Virus record (IMG/VR): IMGVR_UViG_3300025881_001243
Span: 3,257-67,256 of that record
Direction: 5' to 3' (one strand)
DNA from: a virus
DNA: 64,000 nt
The notes under the pieces were generated by a model that saw only the letters and a program-made list of their open reading frames with translations, made no database searches and had not been told where the DNA came from. Shown one piece after another: positions 26,075 to 64,000 of the stretch. Numbering within the stretch: the stretch's first letter is position 1; every line of letters begins with the position of its first letter. Position numbers and translations under genes: made by a program.

Positions 26075-26151
26075 TTGTTAATAACTTTCTCATTTTTAGA
26101 GAAAAAAGTTGTGAAATAATTTTCAATTCCCAATTATTTTGATTATATTTA
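26075..26151 (+). promoter_or_regulatory. repeated ~75 bp putative early promoter element, copy 1 of 8
   Basis: TTGTTAATAACTT...GAGAAAAA...TTTTCAATTCCCAA...TATATTTA; further copies at 27010, 27777, ~39081 (degenerate), 39798, 40113, 41251 and 58070. Confidence 0.8.
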
Positions 26152-26187
26152 TAATATATTAATTCAAACTATATTAAAACAATCAAA

Positions 26188-26589
26188 ATGGTAAAAACGG
26201 AAATCACAACATTTAACAAGGCTAATCTACAAGTCCTAAGAACTGAAATCGACAACGCTCTTAAAGCTGTAGAAAATAAATTTGGAATCAAATTACATGC
26301 AGGTAATGCATCATTCTCTGGAAATGAGGTAACCTTTAAACTAAAAGGAAATACTATCAGTGAAGGCGGAGAAGCAATTACTAAAGAAGCAATTGATTGG
26401 AACCGTCATAAAGGATTACATGGCATGGATCATTTATCTGTAGGTGATCAAATTACAATCCAAGGTAAATCATATACTCTTACAGGATTTAATACAAGAG
26501 CAAGAAAAGCTCCGGTTAATTTTAAAGATTCTTTAGGAAGAGGTTACAAATGTTCTATGAGAATGTTACAAATGGAAAACTCTAAATAA
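26188..26589 (+). CDS. hypothetical protein behind the repeated promoter element
   Basis: ORF directly downstream of the promoter repeat. Confidence 0.7.
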   Translation: MVKTEITTFNKANLQVLRTEIDNALKAVENKFGIKLHAGNASFSGNEVTFKLKGNTISEGGEAITKEAIDWNRHKGLHGMDHLSVGDQITIQGKSYTLTGFNTRARKAPVNFKDSLGRGYKCSMRMLQMENSK

Positions 26590-27009: not shown

Positions 27010-27087
27010 TTGTTAATAACTTTTTTCATTTTTAGAGAAAAAAGTCTACGAAAAATTTTTATTTCCCAATTATTTTGATTATATTTA
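27010..27087 (+). promoter_or_regulatory. putative early promoter element, copy 2
   Basis: Close match to the 26075 element. Confidence 0.8.
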
Positions 27088-27115
27088 ATTATATTAATAA
27101 TTAAAAAACGGAAAT

Positions 27116-27541
27116 ATGGAAACATTACAAAACAAGGAAATCGTACTAAAGGACACTGAAATCATGACAGTAGACATACTGTCGCAATACCCAAGTGGTA
27201 AATTCAGATTCATAACAAGGACTAAATTAGGTATGACTTGTGTAGATGCAAGAGACTTTGATAATCCAAGGTTATCTGCTCACCCAGAATCAATCATTAG
27301 CGGTTACAAAAAAGGAGCATTGCAAACCGTACAATTTCAACCAGAAGGATCTGACTTCTATTTAACAGTATTCTCAAGGACTGGTAAAAAAGTAAAGTTA
27401 ATTGACGAAAGCATCTTAGCTGACTTAACAGTAGGAACTATTAACAGTATGTATTACAATACTAATCTGTATAGTCAAGATCAATATCAATCAGTTAACT
27501 CTAAAACATGGGCGAGTAAAGCATTCGTCCTTAACTCATAA
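27116..27541 (+). CDS. hypothetical putative early protein
   Basis: AAAAACGGAAAT directly before the ATG. Confidence 0.7.
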   Translation: METLQNKEIVLKDTEIMTVDILSQYPSGKFRFITRTKLGMTCVDARDFDNPRLSAHPESIISGYKKGALQTVQFQPEGSDFYLTVFSRTGKKVKLIDESILADLTVGTINSMYYNTNLYSQDQYQSVNSKTWASKAFVLNS

Positions 27542-27553
27542 AAAACGGAAATT

Positions 27554-27775
27554 ATGTCAACCGAATTAAAAACACTTAAAGGAAAATTTCACAGTTCTAA
27601 AACTGGTAAATTGGAAAACACTGAATTGTCATTGACAAGATTCAGCGGAGGAAAGGAAGGTATGAAACTTCAATTAACATTGAGAGATCAAGGAGACTTC
27701 TTCACTCACATTGCTCTTAACAAGGAAGAGCTCAAAACTTTAGTTAAAGAAATCCAAGAAAATTTTGATATCTAA
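27554..27775 (+). CDS. hypothetical putative early protein
   Basis: AAAAACGGAAATT directly before the ATG. Confidence 0.7.
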   Translation: MSTELKTLKGKFHSSKTGKLENTELSLTRFSGGKEGMKLQLTLRDQGDFFTHIALNKEELKTLVKEIQENFDI

Positions 27776-27843: not shown

Positions 27844-27875
27844 TATTATATAAAAACAATTAAAAAACGGAAATT

Positions 27876-39911: not shown

Positions 39912-40100
39912 ATGGCATATCCTTACAAAAACAAAGAAAACCGGTATCCACAAGGTTACCTTCCGAAGATCCAATATTGGGCCGGAGTATTAGCCGAGGC
40001 AATCGAAGCCGGAGAGGATCATACTACTATTGGTATGGCTAAGTCTAAATTGGATTACTTCTATAATAAGGAAGCTATCCGTAATTCAAAGGAATTCTAA
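39912..40100 (+). CDS. hypothetical putative early protein
   Basis: ORF behind the promoter repeat. Confidence 0.6.
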   Translation: MAYPYKNKENRYPQGYLPKIQYWAGVLAEAIEAGEDHTTIGMAKSKLDYFYNKEAIRNSKEF

Positions 40101-40112
40101 TTGTTTATAAGG

Positions 40113-40178
40113 TGTTAATAACTTTGAGAAAAAAGACACCCAAAAATTTTCAATTCTCAAGAAATTGTGTTATATTTA
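40113..40178 (+). promoter_or_regulatory. putative early promoter element, copy 6
   Basis: TGTTAATAACTT...TTTTCAATTCTCAA...TGTTATATTTA. Confidence 0.8.
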
Positions 40179-40201
40179 TATTATAATTAAAAAACGGAAA
40201 A

Positions 40202-40375
40202 ATGGTAAAAACAACAACAAAGTACAAAGTAGAATTGCAAGGCGATCTACTAATGATCAAAGACCTAAAAGGTAATCTCCTAAGAGGCATGGCGGTGCAA
40301 GGATTCAACGCTGTAGATAAGTTCAACGAAATGGTTGAAAAAGTAAAGAATCACGAATCTAAAATGTCTAAGTAA
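40202..40375 (+). CDS. hypothetical putative early protein (57 aa, not in the ORF track)
   Basis: MVKTTTKYKVELQGDLLMIKDLKG...; AAAAACGGAAA before the ATG. Confidence 0.65.
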   Translation: MVKTTTKYKVELQGDLLMIKDLKGNLLRGMAVQGFNAVDKFNEMVEKVKNHESKMSK

Positions 40376-40376
40376 T

Positions 40377-41240
40377 ATGGGAGTATCTAAACTAAATAAC
40401 AGGCTGACTCAAATCTCAAATGTCAAATATGCTAAAGGTCTATTTGATGCTCACAAGACCAATACTCCACTCGACGGTTTATTCTCAATCGATGGTGGTG
40501 TACCAAAGGCTACTAACTGGATGGTAGTAGGGGATCCTGGAGTTGGTAAATCTACAGTAACACTGGATATTATCGCTAATGCAAAAAAGAGCGGTAGTAA
40601 GGTACTATTCATCTCGGCTGAAATGAACCAAGTAGATCTATACCTCTACGTTCAACGATATCCGAAGTTTGGAGAATTGGATATATTCTTTCCACAAGAT
40701 ATTGCTGAAGATGAAGATCCAAGGAAAGTATTAAACAGTATCTTAGATACAGGATATGATCTTGTACTGATTGACTCCTTTGTGGAACTACAAGAAACTA
40801 TCCGTGAACATGCTAAGATGACAAGGAATAGTTCAGAGAAGTGGTTATTGGATATGATGTACAAACAAAATCTTGGTCAGAATAAAGGCAAGAAGTATAC
40901 ATCATTCCTTAATATACAACAGGTAAATAAAGGTGGTACATTCGTTGGTTCTAATAAACTAAAGCATATGACTACTGGGATGATGGAAATCCGATTTGTG
41001 GATGAAAGGTCTCAAGATGAACGTTATGTTGTATTTAGTAAAAACCGTCGAGGTCATGTAGGAAAACAAATGTTCTTTGATCTATCTGCCTCAGGTGATG
41101 TTACATATGATACTGAAAGGTTCAAAAAATCTGAAAGCCTTAAGCAACTGAAAAAGAAAGAAAAGGAAATGGTCAAAAAGGATGGCCTTGAATTTGATAA
41201 GCTATTCGGTTTAAAGGATGAGGTAACTGAGAATAAATAA
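40377..41240 (+). CDS. RadA/Sms-like RecA-superfamily ATPase
   Basis: GDPGVGKST, VLFISAEM, VLIDS, QVNKGG.FVGSNKLKHM, KNRRG motifs. Confidence 0.8.
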   Translation: MGVSKLNNRLTQISNVKYAKGLFDAHKTNTPLDGLFSIDGGVPKATNWMVVGDPGVGKSTVTLDIIANAKKSGSKVLFISAEMNQVDLYLYVQRYPKFGELDIFFPQDIAEDEDPRKVLNSILDTGYDLVLIDSFVELQETIREHAKMTRNSSEKWLLDMMYKQNLGQNKGKKYTSFLNIQQVNKGGTFVGSNKLKHMTTGMMEIRFVDERSQDERYVVFSKNRRGHVGKQMFFDLSASGDVTYDTERFKKSESLKQLKKKEKEMVKKDGLEFDKLFGLKDEVTENK

Positions 41241-41250
41241 AGAAAGGGAA

Positions 41251-41318
41251 TTGTTAATAACTTCTATGAAAAAAGTCCTAGAAATATTTTCAATTCCCAA
41301 CAATTTGTGTTATATTTA
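41251..41318 (+). promoter_or_regulatory. putative early promoter element, copy 7
   Basis: Full element. Confidence 0.8.
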
Positions 41319-41351
41319 TAATATAATAAAAACGGTTAAAATATACAAATT

Positions 41352-42509
41352 ATGAGAAGTATTACAACACTAAGTCAAAATGCCTTCGACGTTAAAAAGG
41401 CTGAAGCAATCAATAACCAATTGATGCGGAAAGAAATTACTCTATCAGAATTCAATGTAATTGACAACAACCATATCGATGTGGACGGTGTTAAGATTGA
41501 GGTAACTGATAAAGCATTCGGTAAATTGCTTGGCCGCCTCCGTATTCCTAAGGCGTTTGCTACAAGATTTAGTGAAGGATTCGGTAATGATGGTTTACGC
41601 CAATTGATTACTATGATGAAATCTATGAAATCATCTAAGAACGATCAAACGGTAACTCTATTGGTCGATCCATCTAACCGAAAGATTACTGATATTCTAC
41701 CTGCAGGATATGCTTCTATTTCAAATGAATCATTCATTGATTTTGCTGAAAGGTATATCAATCAATATAACTTGGATGTAACGCATATGGGATCAAGCCA
41801 ATATGGTGGAACTCAAATTAACTGTGTATCACCACAAGGTATGTTTAATGTACCAGGAATGACAAACGAGGTATTTAATACTGGAGTAACATTCAGAAAT
41901 ACACCAACTCGTGGATTGGAAGTATCACCTTACCTAGAACGTCTAATCTGTGCAAACGGAATGACCTCAACTGCATTCGCTGAAAACTATGGTCTTCATA
42001 ACCTCAACGATAAAAACATCAATGAGTTTAATGAACATATGATCCGAATGGCATCTACTAACTTCCAACCAGTAGGATTGGCCGATAATATCAAAAAGGC
42101 TAATAATACCGATGCAAGTTTAGCAGAAATCCAACGCGCTGCCTCAAGTATACTATCACTGGATAAAAACATCGATTATAACTATATCCAAAAGTATATC
42201 CCTGTAGATCGTGCAATGAAAGCATATGCTGATTTAGGAGCTGATCCAAATACCTTTACAAAGGCTCAAATGAAAAATGCTAAATCTGGTATGTCTGTTT
42301 GGGATGTAGTAAATGGAATGACCAATTTTGCCTCTAACGATACTAAGTATAATGTTAATGAAGGTAAAATGGGGAATCTAATGGTAACTGCCGGTAATAT
42401 TCTTTGTAAGAAGCAATATGATACTGAAGGTTACTTGGATATCAATCCATTCGCTAATAAACAATTGCTAACTACCTCTGAAGCCGCAATGGTTCGAGGA
42501 GAAGCATAA
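41352..42509 (+). CDS. DUF932-like protein
   Basis: G..FRN......V.PY.ERLICANGM motif. Confidence 0.6.
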   Translation: MRSITTLSQNAFDVKKAEAINNQLMRKEITLSEFNVIDNNHIDVDGVKIEVTDKAFGKLLGRLRIPKAFATRFSEGFGNDGLRQLITMMKSMKSSKNDQTVTLLVDPSNRKITDILPAGYASISNESFIDFAERYINQYNLDVTHMGSSQYGGTQINCVSPQGMFNVPGMTNEVFNTGVTFRNTPTRGLEVSPYLERLICANGMTSTAFAENYGLHNLNDKNINEFNEHMIRMASTNFQPVGLADNIKKANNTDASLAEIQRAASSILSLDKNIDYNYIQKYIPVDRAMKAYADLGADPNTFTKAQMKNAKSGMSVWDVVNGMTNFASNDTKYNVNEGKMGNLMVTAGNILCKKQYDTEGYLDINPFANKQLLTTSEAAMVRGEA

Positions 42510-42530
42510 ACCTATCAATTGATTATGAAA

Positions 42531-42616
42531 TAAACCACCGGGTTTTAAATTTCCGTTTTTCTCCCTAGGTTATAGGGCAGCCATAAATCTGTATTCAGAC
42601 TAGGCTGCCCTTTTTT
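42531..42616 (+). ncRNA. candidate antisense sRNA (stem-loop exposing AAUUUCCGUUUUU, plus terminator)
   Basis: 42548-42560 is the exact reverse complement of AAAAACGGAAATT found before the ATGs at 27554 and 27876. Confidence 0.55.
42574..42616 (+). terminator. Rho-independent terminator
   Basis: agggcagcc ... ggctgccct followed by a T run. Confidence 0.85.
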
Positions 42617-42635
42617 GTGCTTAAAAACTCACACA

Positions 42636-43345
42636 TTCTAGAGTGCTCTAGAAGCAGCCAGGACAATATGCCTATTTTTGTGTGATTTTGTCTTGGTTAT
42701 TGTGCATATTGTCCTGGCCTGCTAGCAATAGCCTCTAGAACGGCCCTCTAGAGCCCATATATACGTCATATTGTCACTAATTTCCCACAAATAGCACTCT
42801 AGAGCGGCATCTAGACACCCAATATAGCCCATATTGCGATATATCGGCCCTAGTAGCTATAGTCCTCCACAGCGCAGCTATTTCACAGCATTGTCAACAA
42901 CCACCCCTAGCTCCTAAAACAACTAAAAGGGCATAATCCCTAATAACTACTATAGCAATATAAATAATTACCAGTAACCTGCTAGAGCCTGCTAGAAAGG
43001 GATAATGTCTACTAGCTTAAAGTTATCTGTCTATAAGAGAATACCCTATATGGTAGTAACTAGTAGTAACCACCTAATGGTCTATAGAGTAAAGGTATCC
43101 AGCTGTCTGGTAGTACTGTAGGGCTAGTAGCTATTAGAAGGGTAAGGTAAGGTCCAGAGAATAATACCCTTGATATGTATTTTTCACTTGGGTGAATTTA
43201 GGTCAAACCGGCGCATGCGTTTGGGCCCACGCAAAAATTCTAGCCAGAAAATTTGCTAGTATCCAGAATGTGAGTCTAAGAAAGATGTCTAATTCTCGTA
43301 AGTCTAGTCCAGAAATTTTTTCATCCTGTAAAAAAAGAGCTAGTA
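42636..43345. repeat. CTAG-dense non-coding block with inverted repeats
   Basis: Paired TCTAGA at 42637/42648, 42734/42747 and 42798/42810; cctgctaga x2 at 42978/42988; perfect 15-bp IR 42657-42671/42704-42718. Confidence 0.75.
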
Positions 43346-43406
43346 AAAACTTTCAGATAAGGTATCCACCTGTTATAATTTTATTATAATAACAAAATAA
43401 CTACAA

Positions 43407-43574
43407 ATGGACAAATTCCTAAATGACATTTCAACAAACCAAGCAGATGCTCTAGCATCCATTGCGGAGTCCTTATCCGCAATCAGTACTACTGCTAACC
43501 TCATCATGGTACTCCTGGCTTGTCTAGTAATCTCTAAAGGACTAAAAGAAATTCATAAATTCATTAACTTGTAA
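43407..43574 (+). CDS. small membrane protein (55 aa)
   Basis: Follows CTTTCA-N15-TGTTATAATT; not in the ORF track. Confidence 0.5.
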   Translation: MDKFLNDISTNQADALASIAESLSAISTTANLIMVLLACLVISKGLKEIHKFINL

Positions 43575-43578
43575 TACC

Positions 43579-43977
43579 ATGAAACTTCTCTACTGTAATA
43601 CCTGCCGAGATATTTTCTCTCTATCGTATACTACCAAGACCTGCCACTGTGGCGAGTCTGGTGGCCATTACGAGTCTGATGGTCTAAACGCGACATACTA
43701 TGGTAACGCTACGCCACTCGGATTTACTAATAATACCTTTAAGCATGCAAGGGAACGACAACCAGAGTTCGGCGCTGGTTTTGAATTTACCGCGTTTGTT
43801 ATTCCAAAGGTTTGTCCTTCTATGGACCATATAGATTATTCAGAGTATATTCCTGTTACTAGTGATCCAGACTATTTTGATGAATTAGTAGATAGGTTAG
43901 AGGAAGAAGTGGTTAGAGAAAAAAATTCAAAGAAATTAGGAAATGCCTTTAAACAATCTGGGGATGGTGCTATATAA
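43579..43977 (+). CDS. Cys-rich (zinc-binding) hypothetical phage protein
   Basis: CNTC ... CHCG motifs. Confidence 0.65.
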   Translation: MKLLYCNTCRDIFSLSYTTKTCHCGESGGHYESDGLNATYYGNATPLGFTNNTFKHARERQPEFGAGFEFTAFVIPKVCPSMDHIDYSEYIPVTSDPDYFDELVDRLEEEVVREKNSKKLGNAFKQSGDGAI

Positions 43978-44000
43978 TAATAATAAATGGAATGGAGAAT

Positions 44001-45715: not shown

Positions 45716-45801
45716 GCCGCTGTGGTGAAATTGGTAGACACGAGGGACTTAAAATCCCTTTCGCCGAACGGTGAGTGACGGTTCGAATCCGTCCAGCGGT
45801 A
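45716..45801 (+). tRNA. tRNA-Leu(UAA)
   Basis: gccgctg/cagcggt acceptor, aggga-ctTAAaa-tccct anticodon arm, long variable arm, GGTTCGAATCC; no encoded CCA. Confidence 0.95.
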
Positions 45802-45823
45802 CTAACCTTAATAATTAAAAAAA

Positions 45824-46095: not shown

Positions 46096-46323
46096 ATGGA
46101 AAATACAATTGATGTAAAAAGTAAAGATGAAGTATGGTGGGCAACTACTAACGAATATGATCTTGAAGTAAACGGAGAAAACTTATCAATGAGAATTGCT
46201 GAAACTCCAAAGAGTACAGAATTCTTTGTATGGAATGAATCTACTGGCTGGGAAGAAGCTGATACTGATACAGGTATTATGGAAATAGTTTATGAAGCAT
46301 GGAGTAACGGAGAATTAGAATAA
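46096..46323 (+). CDS. acidic hypothetical protein
   Basis: ORF. Confidence 0.6.
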   Translation: MENTIDVKSKDEVWWATTNEYDLEVNGENLSMRIAETPKSTEFFVWNESTGWEEADTDTGIMEIVYEAWSNGELE

Positions 46324-46437: not shown

Positions 46438-46511
46438 GGACTCGTAGCTCAGCTGGATAGAGCATCGCCCTTCTAAGGCGACGGTCATAGGTTCGAATCC
46501 TATCGGGTTCA
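46438..46511 (+). tRNA. tRNA-Arg(UCU)
   Basis: ggactcg/cgggttc acceptor, TAGCTCAGCTGGATAGAGC, tcgcc-ctTCTaa-ggcga, GGTTCGAATCC. Confidence 0.95.
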
Positions 46512-46529
46512 CAAATGAAATAAAATAAT

Positions 46530-52623: not shown

Positions 52624-52696
52624 TGTGCCTTGGTGTAACTGGCAACACGTCTGGTTTTGGTCCAGAAGAGTGGAGGTTCGAGCCCTTCAGGCACAA
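52624..52696 (+). tRNA. tRNA-Gln(UUG)
   Basis: tgtgcct/aggcaca acceptor, tctgg-ttTTGgt-ccaga anticodon arm, GGTTCGAGCCC. Confidence 0.93.
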
Positions 52697-52724
52697 CATT
52701 ATTAAGCTACTAAATATATACTAT

Positions 52725-58136: not shown

Positions 58137-58159
58137 TAATATAATTAAATAAACGGAAT

Positions 58160-61203: not shown

Positions 61204-64000
61204 ATGGCATTCAATCTAAAAGAATACATCATCTACAGAACTGAGGTTCAAAGAGAACTTTTTAACGGAGAGGTAGATGAAAACTTCAAGGCAGTAGCAA
61301 ACCCATGGGTAGATAATAGGTCTTACGATACCGGGCATGTAGTATATCACCCAGTTGAGGTTGTTAGTGCTACTGGGACTCCGGAAGAAACCTTAACTTG
61401 GTGGAGAGCTAATAAAAGAACAACACAAGGCGCGTTTGATACTAATGAATGGGATATCATTGGAGGTATAGGTACTGGTGATATAACAGTAAGTGGATCA
61501 AATGGGTATGGTAAAGTATTAGTTAATTATACTGGCCCAACACCAGCCCTCGCAGCGGATATCGATTTTACATTAGCGTCTACAACTGATAATGATACTC
61601 TTAGATTAATAGCAGGCCCAGGTATTAGTTTTCAATATGACAATACAGTTAAGGCAATTAAGATAATAAATAATGGTAATGCAGGTGAGGTAAATCAAGG
61701 TTTAAATATAGGAACAGGTGGACAAGATTTGTTTGCTGGAATGAGTGGCCAAGATTTAACATTTAGAGGGCTTAACGTAACTAATGTTACCGGTACTGGT
61801 GAAGTTTTAGAAATTCAATTAGATGCTGGAAACAATAACGTAGTTTATAATTTTGATGAAGGTGCTCTTGAATTACAGAATTTAAATAGTGGGCAGCCTC
61901 TTATTGATTATTTGGATGATGTTGCAATAACTAATGTACAGAATGCTGATCTTTTACAATGGGATGGTAATAATTGGATAAACATTGCACCTAGTTCTGC
62001 TGGTCTAACTGGGGCACAAGGTACGCAAGGTACACAAGGTATTCAAGGTACGCAAGGTTTACAAGGTATTCAAGGTTTACAGGGTACTCAAGGTATTACA
62101 GGAACTCAAGGTATTCAAGGTATTCAAGGTACACAAGGTATTCAAGGTATTACAGGTGCAGGGACTCAAGGTATCCAAGGTATCCAAGGTATTACAGGTG
62201 CAGGGACTCAAGGTATCCAAGGTATTCAAGGTATTACAGGTACAGGAACTCAAGGTATTACAGGTATTCAAGGTACACAAGGTATCCAAGGTACAACTGG
62301 AGCCGATGGTACTTTTGGGGGTGCTACTTTCGATTATCAATTTAATACAACATTAGTAGTTGACGATCCTGGTTTTAGTTATGCTTCTTTAAATACAGCA
62401 AACCAAAGCCTAGCTACCATTATGTCTATAAATGATAATGGTGTTACTGGAACTGACATATCTACGTTCTTAACTACAATACAATCAAGTACTTCTATAC
62501 CTAAAGGGCATGTTAGGATATCATCAAAAGCTGATTCAAATGAATTTATACTTTGGCAAATAACTGAAGTATATGACAGACCTTCTGCTGGAGGTACATG
62601 GTGGGAATTAGAAGTAGTACCTGTTGCATTTACTGAAACTGCACCATTTACTATGGATGAAGACATATTAATATCATTTGTTGTAACAGGAGATAAAGGT
62701 GCACAAGGAACTCAAGGAACTCAAGGAATTACAGGTTCTCAAGGTGCACAAGGTACATTCGGTACTCAGGGAATTACTGGTGCAGGGACTCAAGGTATTC
62801 AAGGTATTCAAGGTTTAACTGGTGTTGGGGCCCAAGGCGCACAAGGTACATTCGGTACACAAGGTATTCAAGGAATAACTGGAAGTGTAGCCTTTTTAGG
62901 TAATTGGTATTTAAGAGATACAACAACAGGGGTAGCTGATCCAACATCTGGTGAATTTATTGGAAATTCTACAACAAATTTTAGTAATGTCACTTTCTTT
63001 GAATTAAATACAACAGACTGGGGTACTACAGGTTCTAATGGTATAAATAGAGGAGCATACTTGGAGAAGGTTTGTCCTGGATCAATTATGCATATTGAAG
63101 ATCCAACAACTGGTGATGAATGGCAATGGGAAGTAGATGATAATGTTCTCTCTTCTTCTACAACATTTAGAGAATTAACTGTTACCTTTCTTGGTGGACC
63201 AAGTGGTATTGGAACACTGGATTATGTATATGAAGTTAGATTTGATACTGCTGGTTGCGAAGGCGCCCAAGGTATAACTGGTTTACAAGGTATACAAGGT
63301 ATAGCTGGTAGCATTTCGGCTCAAGGTACTCAAGGTACACAAGGAATTACTGGAACCGGGACACAAGGAACTCAAGGTATTCAAGGAATTACAGGAACAC
63401 AAGGAACACAAGGTACACAAGGAATTACTGGAACAGGAACACAAGGAACACAAGGAACTCAAGGTATTCAAGGAATTACTGGAACAGGAATACAAGGTAT
63501 ACAAGGAATTACCGGAACTGGTACTCAAGGAACCCAAGGTATAACTGGTTTACAAGGTATACAAGGTATAGCTGGTAGCGTTTCGGCTCAAGGTACTCAA
63601 GGTACACAAGGAATTACTGGGACAGGAACACAAGGAACGCAAGGAACTCAAGGTATTCAAGGAATTACTGGAACAGGAATACAAGGTATACAAGGAATTA
63701 CCGGAACTGGTACTCAAGGAACCCAAGGTATAACTGGTTTACAAGGTATACAAGGTATAGCTGGTAGCGTTTCGGCTCAAGGTACTCAAGGTACTCAAGG
63801 TATTCAAGGTATAACTGGTTTACAAGGAACTCAAGGTTTACAGGGTATTACTGGAACTGGTGTTCAAGGAACGCAAGGTACTCAAGGTATTCAAGGTATA
63901 ACTGGTTTACAAGGAACTCAAGGTTTACAGGGTATTACTGGAACTGGTGTTCAAGGAACGCAAGGTACTCAAGGTATTCAAGGTATAACTGGTTTACAAG
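61204..64000 (+). CDS. collagen-like tail/fibre protein, runs off the window end
   Basis: Open frame from ATG 61204 (MAFNLKEYIIYR...); Gly-X-Gln/Thr triplet blocks from ~62000; absent from the track because there is no stop in the window. Confidence 0.85.
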   Translation, partial: MAFNLKEYIIYRTEVQRELFNGEVDENFKAVANPWVDNRSYDTGHVVYHPVEVVSATGTPEETLTWWRANKRTTQGAFDTNEWDIIGGIGTGDITVSGSNGYGKVLVNYTGPTPALAADIDFTLASTTDNDTLRLIAGPGISFQYDNTVKAIKIINNGNAGEVNQGLNIGTGGQDLFAGMSGQDLTFRGLNVTNVTGTGEVLEIQLDAGNNNVVYNFDEGALELQNLNSGQPLIDYLDDVAITNVQNADLLQWDGNNWINIAPSSAGLTGAQGTQGTQGIQGTQGLQGIQGLQGTQGITGTQGIQGIQGTQGIQGITGAGTQGIQGIQGITGAGTQGIQGIQGITGTGTQGITGIQGTQGIQGTTGADGTFGGATFDYQFNTTLVVDDPGFSYASLNTANQSLATIMSINDNGVTGTDISTFLTTIQSSTSIPKGHVRISSKADSNEFILWQITEVYDRPSAGGTWWELEVVPVAFTETAPFTMDEDILISFVVTGDKGAQGTQGTQGITGSQGAQGTFGTQGITGAGTQGIQGIQGLTGVGAQGAQGTFGTQGIQGITGSVAFLGNWYLRDTTTGVADPTSGEFIGNSTTNFSNVTFFELNTTDWGTTGSNGINRGAYLEKVCPGSIMHIEDPTTGDEWQWEVDDNVLSSSTTFRELTVTFLGGPSGIGTLDYVYEVRFDTAGCEGAQGITGLQGIQGIAGSISAQGTQGTQGITGTGTQGTQGIQGITGTQGTQGTQGITGTGTQGTQGTQGIQGITGTGIQGIQGITGTGTQGTQGITGLQGIQGIAGSVSAQGTQGTQGITGTGTQGTQGTQGIQGITGTGIQGIQGITGTGTQGTQGITGLQGIQGIAGSVSAQGTQGTQGIQGITGLQGTQGLQGITGTGVQGTQGTQGIQGITGLQGTQGLQGITGTGVQGTQGTQGIQGITGLQ
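62005..64000 (+). repeat. collagen-coding 9-bp-period repeats with longer internal duplications
   Basis: caaggt/caagga periodicity in blocks ~62005-62310, ~62695-62885 and ~63262-64000. Confidence 0.9.

What the first reader, a model, noticed from the sequence alone, without database searches (positions are those of the whole stretch)
42531..42616. Candidate phage sRNA antisense to a shared start-codon motif of a putative early regulon
Seen: after the DUF932-like gene, a weak stem (aacc/ggtt, ggg/ccc) exposes a loop containing AATTTCCGTTTTT (42548-42560), followed by a strong terminator. Its reverse complement AAAAACGGAAATT sits directly before the ATGs at 27554 and 27876 (13/13), 27116 (12 nt) and 40202 (11 nt), and in codons 2-6 of 26188 (12 nt). 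Partial 8-nt matches lie upstream of the ligase (58160) and of 41352. All these genes lie behind the repeated ~75 bp promoter element. Inference: a 3'-UTR-derived trans-acting sRNA, itself made from one of these promoters, could shut off (or activate) translation of the whole class. That would be a multi-target RNA feedback switch, which I do not recognise as described in such phages.
Basis: partly seen in the sequence, partly recalled or inferred. Interest (0 to 1): 0.88.

Follow-up and report, generated by a model that had tools for sequence, protein, structure and literature searches.

The report
Phage 3'UTR hairpin antisense to start-sites
A small, evolutionarily conserved RNA hairpin at the end of one gene of an uncultured marine phage displays a loop that is the exact antisense of a short motif sitting just before the start codons of several other phage genes, which makes it a good but experimentally untested candidate for an RNA that switches the translation of a whole gene class.

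Summary
AATTTCCGTTTTT (42548-42560) lies in the loop of a weak hairpin (42533-42571) followed by a strong terminator (42574-42616). Its reverse complement lies directly before the ATGs at 27554 and 27876 (13/13), 27116 (12), 40202 (11), and in codons 2-6 of 26188 (12).

Comparative data strengthen it. All 72 metagenomic relatives that could be checked keep a hairpin plus terminator after the same 385-aa gene. The loop core TCCGTTT is invariant, while the stems change by compensatory substitutions. In the same clade AAACGGA(A) sits 1-6 nt before start codons of orthologous and unrelated genes. Five outgroup phage records lack both features.

Limits: flanks of loop and targets do not co-vary. 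Two loop variants are not mirrored by their targets. A single 13-nt antisense match to one start region is common in this AT-rich DNA; only the multi-target match is unique. RNA data are contigs only, so no discrete small RNA is shown. "DUF932-like" is not supported.

Best reading (about 0.55): a 3'UTR-borne or 3'UTR-derived antisense RNA that pairs with the start regions of a promoter class, probably repressing translation. This is a new variant of known phage antisense RNAs such as P1 c4.

The parts
41352..42509 (+). 385-aa gene of unknown function whose 3'UTR carries the element; transcribed from promoter copy 41249-41322
   Evidence: ORF list. No Pfam or NCBIfam family, PHROG 1362 unknown. 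Relatives at 68-100% aa identity in 18 viral and 80 metagenome loci.
42510..42532 (+). AU-rich spacer between stop codon and hairpin (CAATTGATTATGAAATAAA). Conserved in the closer relatives; absent in others, where the hairpin starts 0-10 nt after the stop
   Evidence: That it is a processing site or the 5' part of the RNA is inference only.
42533..42571 (+). Hairpin 1: outer stem AACC/GGTT, inner stem GGG/CCC, about 20-nt loop
   Evidence: Fold. An equivalent hairpin is present in all 14 viral-contig variants and 57 unique metagenome variants. Compensatory stem changes.
42548..42560 (+). Loop 'seed' AATTTCCGTTTTT; invariant core TCCGTTT = 42552-42558
   Evidence: Invariant columns in A2 and A4. 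TCCGTT found in 72 of 72 loci.
42574..42616 (+). Intrinsic terminator: AGGGCAGCC/GGCTGCCCT stem with an inner small stem, then T6
27104..27115 (+). Target motif, 12 nt, abutting ATG 27116 (141-aa protein, unknown)
   Evidence: Duplex -15.0 kcal/mol, rank 1 of 102 start regions.
27541..27553 (+). Target motif, 13/13, abutting ATG 27554 (73 aa). Intercistronic, no promoter copy of its own
   Evidence: Duplex -14.3.
27863..27875 (+). Target motif, 13/13, abutting ATG 27876 (102 aa)
   Evidence: Duplex -14.3.
26193..26204 (+). Target motif, 12 nt, in codons 2-6 of gene 26188 (133 aa)
   Evidence: Duplex -13.3. The same in-codon placement (ATGGCAAAAACGGAAAC) occurs in 288-291-aa genes of four relatives, which by size and position I take to be homologues of the ATPase at 40377.
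40190..40200 (+). Target motif, 11 nt, 1 nt before ATG 40202 (57 aa; the stop of this ORF abuts the start of the RecA/KaiC-like ATPase gene 40377-41240)
   Evidence: Duplex -12.1. Orthologous 57-58-aa genes in L039, L040, L043, L046 and L049 keep the motif.
58151..58158 (+). Partial motif AAACGGAA, 1 nt before ATG 58160 (ATP-dependent DNA ligase)
   Evidence: Duplex only -9.2.
41328..41335 (+). Partial motif AAAAACGG in the leader of the element's own gene, 16 nt before ATG 41352; about 6 nt after the -10 box, so possibly at the mRNA 5' end
   Evidence: The transcription start position is inferred from the hexamer scan.
26076..26155 (+). Promoter element copy: palindrome-like TGTTAATAAC, then TTCCCA-17 nt-TATAAT. 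Other copies near 27011, 27778, 39089, 39799, 40113, 41252, 58071

Best explanation
The last ~85 nt of the mRNA of gene 41352-42509 form a two-hairpin RNA: a seed hairpin plus an intrinsic terminator. This is the architecture of a base-pairing small RNA. The RNA may stay attached as a 3'UTR or be cut off as a 3'UTR-derived sRNA. Either way, its loop (core UCCGUUU, 13 nt in this phage) pairs in trans with the motif AAACGGA(A). That motif lies inside the ribosome-binding window (-14 to +16) of at least five phage mRNAs of one promoter class, and more weakly in the ligase mRNA and in its own mRNA. In a phage whose start regions carry no Shine-Dalgarno sequence and look dependent on open, A-rich leaders, a duplex there should block 30S binding. 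The likely effect is therefore a delayed, collective translational shut-off of the class by a product of the class itself (negative feedback). Shown: the sequences, the fold, the conservation, the stem covariation and the positional enrichment. Inferred: transcription as one unit, pairing in vivo, repression rather than activation, and the timing.
For: (1) Structure is under selection. All 14 non-identical viral-contig versions fold as hairpin 1 plus terminator, with the core in the loop (mean unpaired probability 0.48-1.00). 72 of 72 metagenome loci with at least 90 nt downstream have TCCGTT within 200 nt of the stop, in 57 unique elements. Their stems are unrelated in sequence: AACC..GGG/CCC..GGTT, AACCTGG/CCAGGTT, CCGGG/CCCGG, ACTGGG/CCCAGT, TCAAGG/CCTTGA, GACTGTTGG/CCAACTAGTC. 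On 11 equal-length versions 98.2% of cells pair. One pair occurs as AU 4, GC 4, UA 3. The covariation score is 0.364 against 0.123 shuffled (0 of 500 shuffles), and it collapses when partners are slid. (2) The loop core is invariant while the stems, terminators and flanks diverge. (3) The complementary motif is tied to start codons, not to the promoter. 21 of 36 AACGGAA sites in 15 sources lie 1-6 nt before an ATG that opens an ORF of 40 codons or more. 5 more lie in codons 2-6. The distance to the promoter core varies from 3 to 28 nt, and 27544 has no promoter. In the window, 5 of 13 sites are start-proximal against 0.22 expected. 63 of 74 hairpin-bearing loci hold at least one such site in the flank available. 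(4) The 288-291-aa genes of relatives (taken as ATPase homologues by size and position) keep the motif either upstream (L045, L014) or inside codons 2-6 (L042, L043, L048, L049). Position moves within the ribosome footprint but presence is kept. (5) The five best duplexes of 102 start regions are the five motif genes (-15.0 to -12.1 kcal/mol; the rest are -10.0 or weaker; mean -6.0, sd 2.7). 42548 is the only locus in the window antisense to several start regions. (6) Co-distribution. Outgroup phages whose homologue of the gene is 32% identical have no TCCGTT hairpin after it. 0 of 25 AAACGGAA places in five outgroup records is next to a start; one of those records is a complete 256-kb genome. 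L026-L028 keep the promoter element and the 27116 orthologue (71% identity) but have another leader. (7) No Shine-Dalgarno enrichment (GGAG in 3 of 95 starts against 3.3 in background) and A-rich positions -3 and -11 to -13. This fits the SD-less initiation described for Bacteroidetes (abstract of PMC6847099). (8) RNA-library contigs from several studies cover the gene's 3' end and run through the hairpin (X18) or start in it and run on (X15).
Against: No discrete transcript, 5' end or 3' end is shown. The RNA runs were contigs only, and DNA may be present in such libraries. There is no co-variation outside the invariant core: 9.58 against 9.31 nt. Two natural loop variants are not mirrored by their targets. 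L224/L225 have AATCTCCGTTTT while three targets in L224 read AAAAAACGGAAATTATG. L043, L044, L048 and L237-242 have TTTATCCGTTTACC with AACGGAA targets. The duplexes are short and AU-rich. Non-start windows reach equal energy: -15.4 at about 46271-46299, -14.8 at about 12286, -14.5 at about 45137. A 13-mer antisense to a single start region occurs at about 11 loci by chance. In the window and its closest relatives part of the loop is predicted to pair internally (unpaired probability 0.55). Co-absence in outgroups is in effect one evolutionary event. Outgroup G006 has its own conserved leader (AAGCTATAAGCAAT before 5 ATGs) without any antisense copy in the 35 kb held. So conserved leaders exist in this phage group without an antisense partner. 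Two of 8 promoter copies drive genes without the motif.
Confidence: 0.55

Rival explanations
1. Two independent functional elements whose complementarity is fortuitous. The hairpin would be an mRNA-stabilising, termination-assisting or protein-binding 3' structure. The AAACGGA(A) motif would be a clade-specific leader or translation-enhancer cassette (or a site for an RNA-binding protein) that needs no antisense partner.
For: Related clades have other conserved leaders with no antisense copy in the DNA held: AAGCTATAAGCAAT in G006 and ACAAACAAACAAA-type in L026/L028. No flank co-variation. Loop variants are not mirrored in the targets. Chance 13-mer antisense matches to single start regions are frequent here.
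Against: The invariant 7-mer of the loop is exactly the reverse complement of the invariant 7-mer of the leaders. Complementarity is usually 8-11 nt and up to 13. 42548 is the only multi-target antisense locus in 64 kb. Both elements occur together in one clade and are missing together outside it. A large conserved loop displayed on a covarying stem next to a terminator is the usual design of a pairing RNA.
Confidence: 0.2
2. AAACGGAAA is a double-stranded DNA site for a phage or host DNA-binding regulator. It would act as an operator just downstream of the promoters; the inverted copy behind the 385-aa gene would be one more site.
For: A DNA site is read in either orientation, which would explain the sense and antisense copies. 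Several copies lie 3-28 bp after the promoter core.
Against: The spacing is fixed to the ATG (1-6 nt), not to the promoter. Site 27541 has no promoter, and the in-codon sites lie about 45 nt downstream of one. The site is not a dyad. The promoter element already carries a palindrome-like TGTTAATAAC in 7 of 8 copies, a more ordinary operator candidate. A DNA site does not explain compensatory changes in the stem that displays it. All start-proximal copies are in the sense orientation.
Confidence: 0.07
3. The pairing is real but works otherwise. It could act in cis, with 5'-3' contact within the element's own mRNA through AAAAACGG at 41328-41335. Or it could act as an activator or stabiliser that protects the short 5' leaders from decay instead of repressing them.
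For: The gene's own leader carries 8 nt of the motif, about 6 nt after the -10 box. In L013/L045 the full motif sits 3 nt before the gene's own ATG. In several targets the motif would lie at or near the predicted mRNA 5' end.
Against: The best matches are to other genes (13/13, 12/13), while the match to its own leader is only 8 nt. The leaders are AU-rich with no evident inhibitory structure to be opened (inference). A duplex over -14 to -1 is expected to hinder, not help, 30S binding (general knowledge).
Confidence: 0.1

Closest known systems
c4 antisense RNA of phages P1 and P7 (Rfam C4, RF01695)
   Same: Phage-encoded and trans-acting. Complementary sequences are displayed in loops and pair around the ribosome-binding site of a phage mRNA to block translation (passages of review PMC12197685). 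That it is made from the same operon as its target is recalled, not checked here.
   Different: c4 controls one operon (ant) in temperate-phage immunity. Here one loop would address at least five separate start regions that share a motif, and the element is a terminator-proximal 3'UTR. There is no sequence or structure similarity: no Rfam match at gathering score in the window, none at E up to 1 in 42400-43450, and no RF01695 match in the 67-kb record (the control genomes did not ring either).
3'UTR-derived base-pairing sRNAs of bacteria (e.g. CpxQ, SdhX, DapZ; recalled, no call)
   Same: A seed upstream of the parental mRNA's own intrinsic terminator, a conserved seed next to less conserved flanks, and several mRNA targets hit at their start regions.
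   Different: Those are cellular and mostly Hfq-dependent, with single-stranded seeds. Here the element is viral, the seed sits in a hairpin loop, its targets are the virus's own co-regulated genes, and processing is unproven.
T4 RegA translational repressor (recalled; Pfam PF01818)
   Same: The proposed logic: a phage product turns down translation of many phage mRNAs of one temporal class by occupying their initiation regions.
   Different: RegA is a protein. No PF01818 match was found in the 67-kb record (the record is 37% complete and the control did not ring). Here the effector would be RNA.
sar RNA of P22 and OOP RNA of lambda
   Same: Small phage antisense RNAs that repress phage genes post-transcriptionally (review PMC12197685).
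   Different: Both are cis-encoded opposite their single target, with long perfect complementarity. The element here lies 2-16 kb from its putative targets and shares only 8-13 nt with them.

Membership tests
3'UTR-derived / 3'UTR-borne base-pairing sRNA | Lies at the 3' end of an mRNA on the coding strand and shares that mRNA's intrinsic terminator | tested here: met
   The hairpin starts 24 nt after stop codon 42509, followed by a terminator stem and T6. The arrangement is the same in all relatives.
3'UTR-derived / 3'UTR-borne base-pairing sRNA | Conserved seed, more conserved than its surroundings | tested here: met
   TCCGTTT is invariant in 57 unique elements, while stems and terminators vary.
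3'UTR-derived / 3'UTR-borne base-pairing sRNA | Seed complementary to several mRNAs at functionally sensitive sites | tested here: met
   The top 5 of 102 start regions are the motif genes. 42548 is the only multi-target antisense locus. The motif is conserved at starts in relatives.
3'UTR-derived / 3'UTR-borne base-pairing sRNA | Exists as a discrete stable RNA species with a defined 5' end | not testable with these tools
   Only assembled contigs of RNA libraries were available; they show no ends or strand.
3'UTR-derived / 3'UTR-borne base-pairing sRNA | Seed and targets co-vary or pairing is proven | tested here: inconclusive
   The cores are invariant on both sides. The flanks show no excess complementarity within contigs (9.58 against 9.31 nt). 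Two loop variants are unmatched by their targets.
C4 antisense RNA family (RF01695) | Match to the family covariance model | tested here: not met
   No match. Caveat: the control genomes did not ring.
Intrinsic (Rho-independent) terminator | G+C-rich stem followed by a U tract | tested here: met
   9-bp outer stem AGGGCAGCC/GGCTGCCCT plus T6. The equivalent is present in every relative.
DNA operator of a transcription factor | Fixed position relative to the promoter, and/or dyad symmetry | tested here: not met
   The distance to the promoter core is 3-28 nt, or there is no promoter at all. The site is asymmetric.
   No Pfam family at E up to 1 names DUF932 for any of 7 relatives. NCBIfam gives nothing. 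PHROG 1362 is of unknown function. Structure was not tested.

The most novel reading that the evidence does not exclude
A clade of large uncultured marine phages uses an RNA 'address label'. A 7-13 nt motif is placed in the ribosome-binding window of a set of co-transcribed (probably early) genes. A single 3'UTR-derived RNA, made from the same promoter class, reads that label and collectively shuts off, or times, their translation. This would be an RNA counterpart of T4 RegA, operating in a Shine-Dalgarno-independent translation system and conserved across dozens of environmental phage lineages.
Probability: 0.4. Interest if true: 0.8.

Novelty: new variant of a known kind. Interest (0 to 1): 0.68.

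Why it matters
The phage-encoded base-pairing RNAs listed in the one review I consulted (PMC12197685, passages only) are mostly from temperate phages of enterobacteria, with a few from phages of Vibrio, Pseudomonas, Yersinia and cyanobacteria. They act on one phage gene or on host genes. If this reading is right, it would be the first case of a virus-encoded RNA that controls a whole class of the virus's own genes through a shared start-site motif. It would also be the first from an abundant, uncultured marine phage group: the gene has 241 relatives among the metagenome stretches scanned. These phages' start regions lack Shine-Dalgarno sequences. The case gives a concrete, cheap experiment (an 85-nt RNA, five leaders, compensatory mutations). 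It also gives a comparative signature that could be searched for in other phages: a covarying stem, an invariant loop, and the loop's complement at start codons.

Tried and rejected
Known RNA families: Rfam at gathering score on the whole window gave only 3 tRNAs. At E up to 1 on 42400-43450 it gave only sub-threshold chance-level hits: SNORA56, MIR9560, and mmgR at 20.2 bits against 41 needed. All rejected.

Cultured relatives: megablast of 40000-44000 against the phage collection found nothing. tblastn of the 385-aa protein found one uncultured 484-kb phage at 26.5% identity. So there is no annotated relative to lean on.

Of the 87 matches in the loci that my script read, only 3 had the T-run context, all from contigs already known; the rest are chance 15-mer matches. 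It was not useful for widening the family.

Relatives of the 27116 protein: 9 loci. None has the motif at a start. I used them as outgroups. Whether those phages have the hairpin cannot be told, because 4 of the 5 records searched lack the 385-aa gene in the DNA held.

Search for a second seed/leader pair in outgroup G006: the leader AAGCTATAAGCAAT has 6 sites at up to 2 mismatches on the two strands. I traced only some of them to starts of divergent operons (four on the gene strand of L035 and the L031 gene's start) and found no antisense copy in a hairpin. So there is no generalisation.

Flank co-variation test: negative.

RNA evidence: one search for runs and one laying of 4 RNA runs. All were Logan contigs, so a start, an end, the strand or the level of an RNA could not be read. 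Parts without cover in X17-X19 mean nothing.

Independent promoter for the small RNA: the sigma-70-type scan shows no convincing + strand promoter just upstream of 42533. In many relatives the hairpin starts 0-10 nt after the stop. A separate transcription unit is therefore not favoured, though not excluded.

RegA-type protein (PF01818): none in the 67-kb record. But the record is 37% complete and the tool's control genomes did not ring.

Host: not established. SD-less, A-rich start regions and a sub-threshold GldB_lipo hit hint at Bacteroidota. The promoter, however, reads as TTCCCA-17-TATAAT, which is not what I recall as the Bacteroidota consensus.

Supplementary files of papers were not consulted. 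Table S1 of PMC12197685 (38 phage sRNAs without a described function) might hold a comparable case that I could not see.
Full report
WHAT THE WINDOW IS. The window is bases 3257-67256 of a 67,256-base IMG/VR virus record, rated 37% complete. Its G+C content is 32%, and nearly all genes lie on the + strand. Near-identical DNA occurs in many marine metagenome runs. There is no cultured relative: megablast found nothing, and the 385-aa protein has a single 26.5%-identity hit in an uncultured 484-kb phage.

THE OBSERVATION.
- AATTTCCGTTTTT is at 42548-42560.
- Its reverse complement is exact at 27541-27553 and 27863-27875, each abutting an ATG.
- It is 12 nt long before ATG 27116, 11 nt before ATG 40202, and 12 nt in codons 2-6 of gene 26188.
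- 8-nt pieces lie before the ligase ATG (58160) and in the leader of 41352.
- The 86 nt 42531-42616 fold into a weak hairpin (42533-42571) with the motif in a roughly 20-nt loop, then a strong terminator (42574-42616): -28.3 kcal/mol, z = -4.62.
- The repeated promoter element exists in 8 copies. It contains a palindrome-like TGTTAATAAC in 7 copies and reads as TTCCCA-17 nt-TATAAT.

Three corrections apply. Gene 27554 has no promoter copy of its own. Two promoter copies (39089, 39806) precede genes without the motif. The upstream gene cannot be called DUF932-like on the evidence of Pfam, NCBIfam or PHROGs.

IS IT MORE THAN CHANCE? A single 13-nt antisense match is not remarkable here. In this AT-rich DNA, 14 positions (about 11 loci) carry a 13-mer antisense to some start region. 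Three other things are remarkable.
- 42548 is the only locus antisense to two or more start regions at 12-13 nt, and to four or five at 11 nt.
- AAACGGA has 5 of its 13 + strand copies within 0-8 nt of a called start. The mean is 0.22 for the 105 permutations of the same letters.
- The five strongest predicted duplexes among 102 start regions are exactly the five motif genes: -15.0 to -12.1 kcal/mol, against -10.0 or weaker for all others. A few non-start windows reach the same energy, however.

RELATED PHAGES: THE HAIRPIN. The 385-aa protein recovered 12, then 18, viral-contig loci and 80 metagenome loci, the best of 241 relatives.

Directly after the stop codon, every relative of 68% identity or more carries a small hairpin whose loop holds TTTCCGTTT or a one-base variant, followed by a G+C-rich terminator. 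I gave 75 of the 80 metagenome loci to the count; 5 were dropped because the gene is cut by the contig end. Of those 75, 72 had at least 90 nt downstream, and all 72 contain TCCGTT within 200 nt of the stop. They make 57 unique elements in which TCCGTTT never changes.

The stems do change, and they change in pairs: AACC..GGG/CCC..GGTT, AACCTGG/CCAGGTT, CCTGG/CCAGG, CCAGG/CCTGG, CCGGG/CCCGG, ACTGGG/CCCAGT, CGGG/CCCG, TCAAGG/CCTTGA, TAGA/TCTA and GACTGTTGG/CCAACTAGTC. On the 11 versions of equal length, 98.2% of cells pair. One position is AU in 4, GC in 4 and UA in 3. The covariation score is 0.364 against 0.123 for shuffles (0 of 500 reach it), and it collapses when partners are slid. So this is a selected RNA (or single-strand) structure with a selected loop sequence. 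No Rfam family matches it.

RELATED PHAGES: THE MOTIF AT START CODONS. In the flanks of the same loci, AACGGAA recurs just before start codons, behind the same promoter element. Of 36 + strand sites in 15 sources (some near-duplicates):
- 21 lie 1-6 nt before an ATG opening an ORF of 40 codons or more;
- 5 lie in codons 2-6 (ATGGCAAAAACGGAAAC);
- one lies 13 nt before a start;
- 9 are elsewhere.
The distance to the promoter core ranges from 3 to 28 nt.

Orthologues of the 57-aa gene keep the motif across five relatives. Genes of 288-291 aa in relatives, which I take by size and position to be homologues of the RecA/KaiC-like ATPase, have it either upstream or inside their first codons. So it is the motif's presence within the ribosome footprint that is retained. 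63 of 74 hairpin-bearing loci show at least one such site in the flank available. The start regions of the window otherwise show no Shine-Dalgarno signal and are A-rich at -3 and -11 to -13. This resembles the SD-independent initiation described for Bacteroidetes (abstract of PMC6847099). The host is unknown.

OUTGROUPS. Phages whose homologue of the gene is only 32% identical (L035 in G006, L050, L051, L052) have other sequences, without TCCGTT, between the stop and the terminator. None of the 25 AAACGGAA places in five outgroup records is next to a start; the records total about 646 kb and include one complete 256-kb genome. L026-L028 keep the promoter element and the 27116 orthologue at 71% identity but have a different leader. 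Hairpin and motif therefore occur together and are missing together. This amounts to one evolutionary contrast, not many.

RESULTS AGAINST THE PAIRING IDEA.
- The flanks of the loop and of the targets do not co-vary: mean contiguous complementarity is 9.58 nt within contigs against 9.31 nt for all loops against all targets.
- The 13-nt match is a feature of this phage; the conserved complementarity is 7-11 nt.
- Two loop variants next to the core (T to C in L224/L225; T to A in L043, L044, L048 and L237-242) are not matched by changes in their own targets.
- Outgroup G006 has its own conserved leader before five ATGs, with no antisense copy in a hairpin in the 35 kb held. Conserved leaders can therefore exist in this group without an antisense partner.
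- In the window and its closest relatives the loop is partly self-paired in the prediction.
- RNA evidence is limited to assembled contigs of metatranscriptome libraries. These cover the gene, the hairpin and the downstream spacer (X15 record 8, 42552-43314; X18 record 23 through the stop into the hairpin of a variant). They cannot show ends, strand or abundance, and they may contain DNA.

MECHANISM PREFERRED. The element has the anatomy of a base-pairing RNA: a conserved loop seed on a covarying stem, then an intrinsic terminator. It lies at the 3' end of an mRNA that is itself driven by the promoter class. The seed's complement lies where a duplex would occlude the 30S subunit on at least five mRNAs of that class.

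I therefore favour (0.55) a 3'UTR-borne or 3'UTR-derived antisense RNA that represses translation of the class as it accumulates. That it is cut out of the mRNA, that it represses rather than activates, and that the class is 'early' are all inferences.

The rivals are:
- fortuitous complementarity of two independent elements (0.2);
- a cis or activating variant of the pairing (0.1);
- a double-stranded DNA operator (0.07). This last is disfavoured by the start-codon-locked spacing, the promoter-less site, the lack of dyad symmetry and the stem covariation.

COMPARISON WITH WHAT IS KNOWN. I consulted passages (not the whole text) of the review PMC12197685. It describes c4 of P1/P7 as a trans-acting antisense RNA whose complementary sequences sit in loops and cover the ribosome-binding region of ant mRNA. 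It describes sar (P22) and OOP (lambda) as cis-antisense repressors, and VpdS and PreS as Hfq-dependent phage sRNAs acting on host RNAs.

Full-text searches for phage sRNAs of the present design listed none. I saw only listings and abstracts for those searches, and supplements were closed. From memory (not checked here): bacterial 3'UTR-derived sRNAs such as CpxQ and SdhX share the seed-plus-own-terminator design. T4 RegA shares the logic of class-wide translational repression.

The element is not a member of the C4 family. It works like a loop-seed antisense RNA. What differs is a shared 'address' motif in many start regions, the 3'UTR origin within the regulated class, and the setting: an uncultured marine phage clade with SD-less start regions. 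Hence: a new variant of a known kind.

VERDICT. Interest 0.68.

Noticed in passing
window 42617-43390: About 780 nt without any ORF directly after the terminator. It is richer in G+C than its surroundings and full of CTAG-containing inverted repeats (tctagag, ctagagtgctctag, gccaggacaatatg...catattgtcctggc). It is syntenic and 70-92% conserved in close relatives, and covered by one 763-nt contig of an RNA library (X15). It could be an origin, a packaging region or a long structured RNA; no Rfam match.
   Followed up: partly
window 26076, 27011, 27778, 39799, 40113, 41252, 58071 (10 nt each): The promoter element carries a near-palindromic TGTTAATAAC in 7 of 8 copies, about 50 nt upstream of a TTCCCA-17 nt-TATAAT pair. 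This is a candidate binding site for a transcription factor that controls the class.
   Followed up: partly
L006:1239-1320 and L009:3312-3385 (relatives): Two relatives carry a roughly 65-nt insertion between the stop codon and the element. It forms a long perfect-ish hairpin (CAATTGCAATA..TATTGCAATT) and interrupts the conserved CAATTG|ATTATG spacer, so it looks like a small mobile hairpin insert.
   Followed up: no
L035 and L031 (record G006): An outgroup phage has its own fixed promoter-leader cassette ending in AAGCTATAAGCAAT directly before the ATG of five genes on two divergent operons. No antisense copy in a hairpin was found in the 35 kb held.
   Followed up: partly
window 61204-63999 (runs off the end): A large ORF of more than 932 aa made of 9-nt periodic CAAGGTNNN repeats, that is, collagen-like Gly-X-Y tracts; probably a fibre protein. 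A similar Gly-rich repeat gene in outgroup G010 accounts for a cluster of seven AAACGGAA copies.
   Followed up: no
window 45716-45802, 46438-46512, 52624-52697: Three tRNA genes: Leu-TAA, Arg-TCT and Gln-TTG.
   Followed up: no
window 19965, 34208, 51242, 56198; 44589, 52229; 1517, 11011, 47015, 50566: A second family of short repeats (TTTTTTACATATAATAATAAA-like, ending 5-15 nt before start codons). It is probably another promoter class, without the CGG motif.
   Followed up: no
window 42525-42533: A two-codon mini-ORF (ATG AAA TAA) lies in the conserved spacer just before hairpin 1. It is kept in the closer relatives and absent in the others; significance unknown.
   Followed up: no
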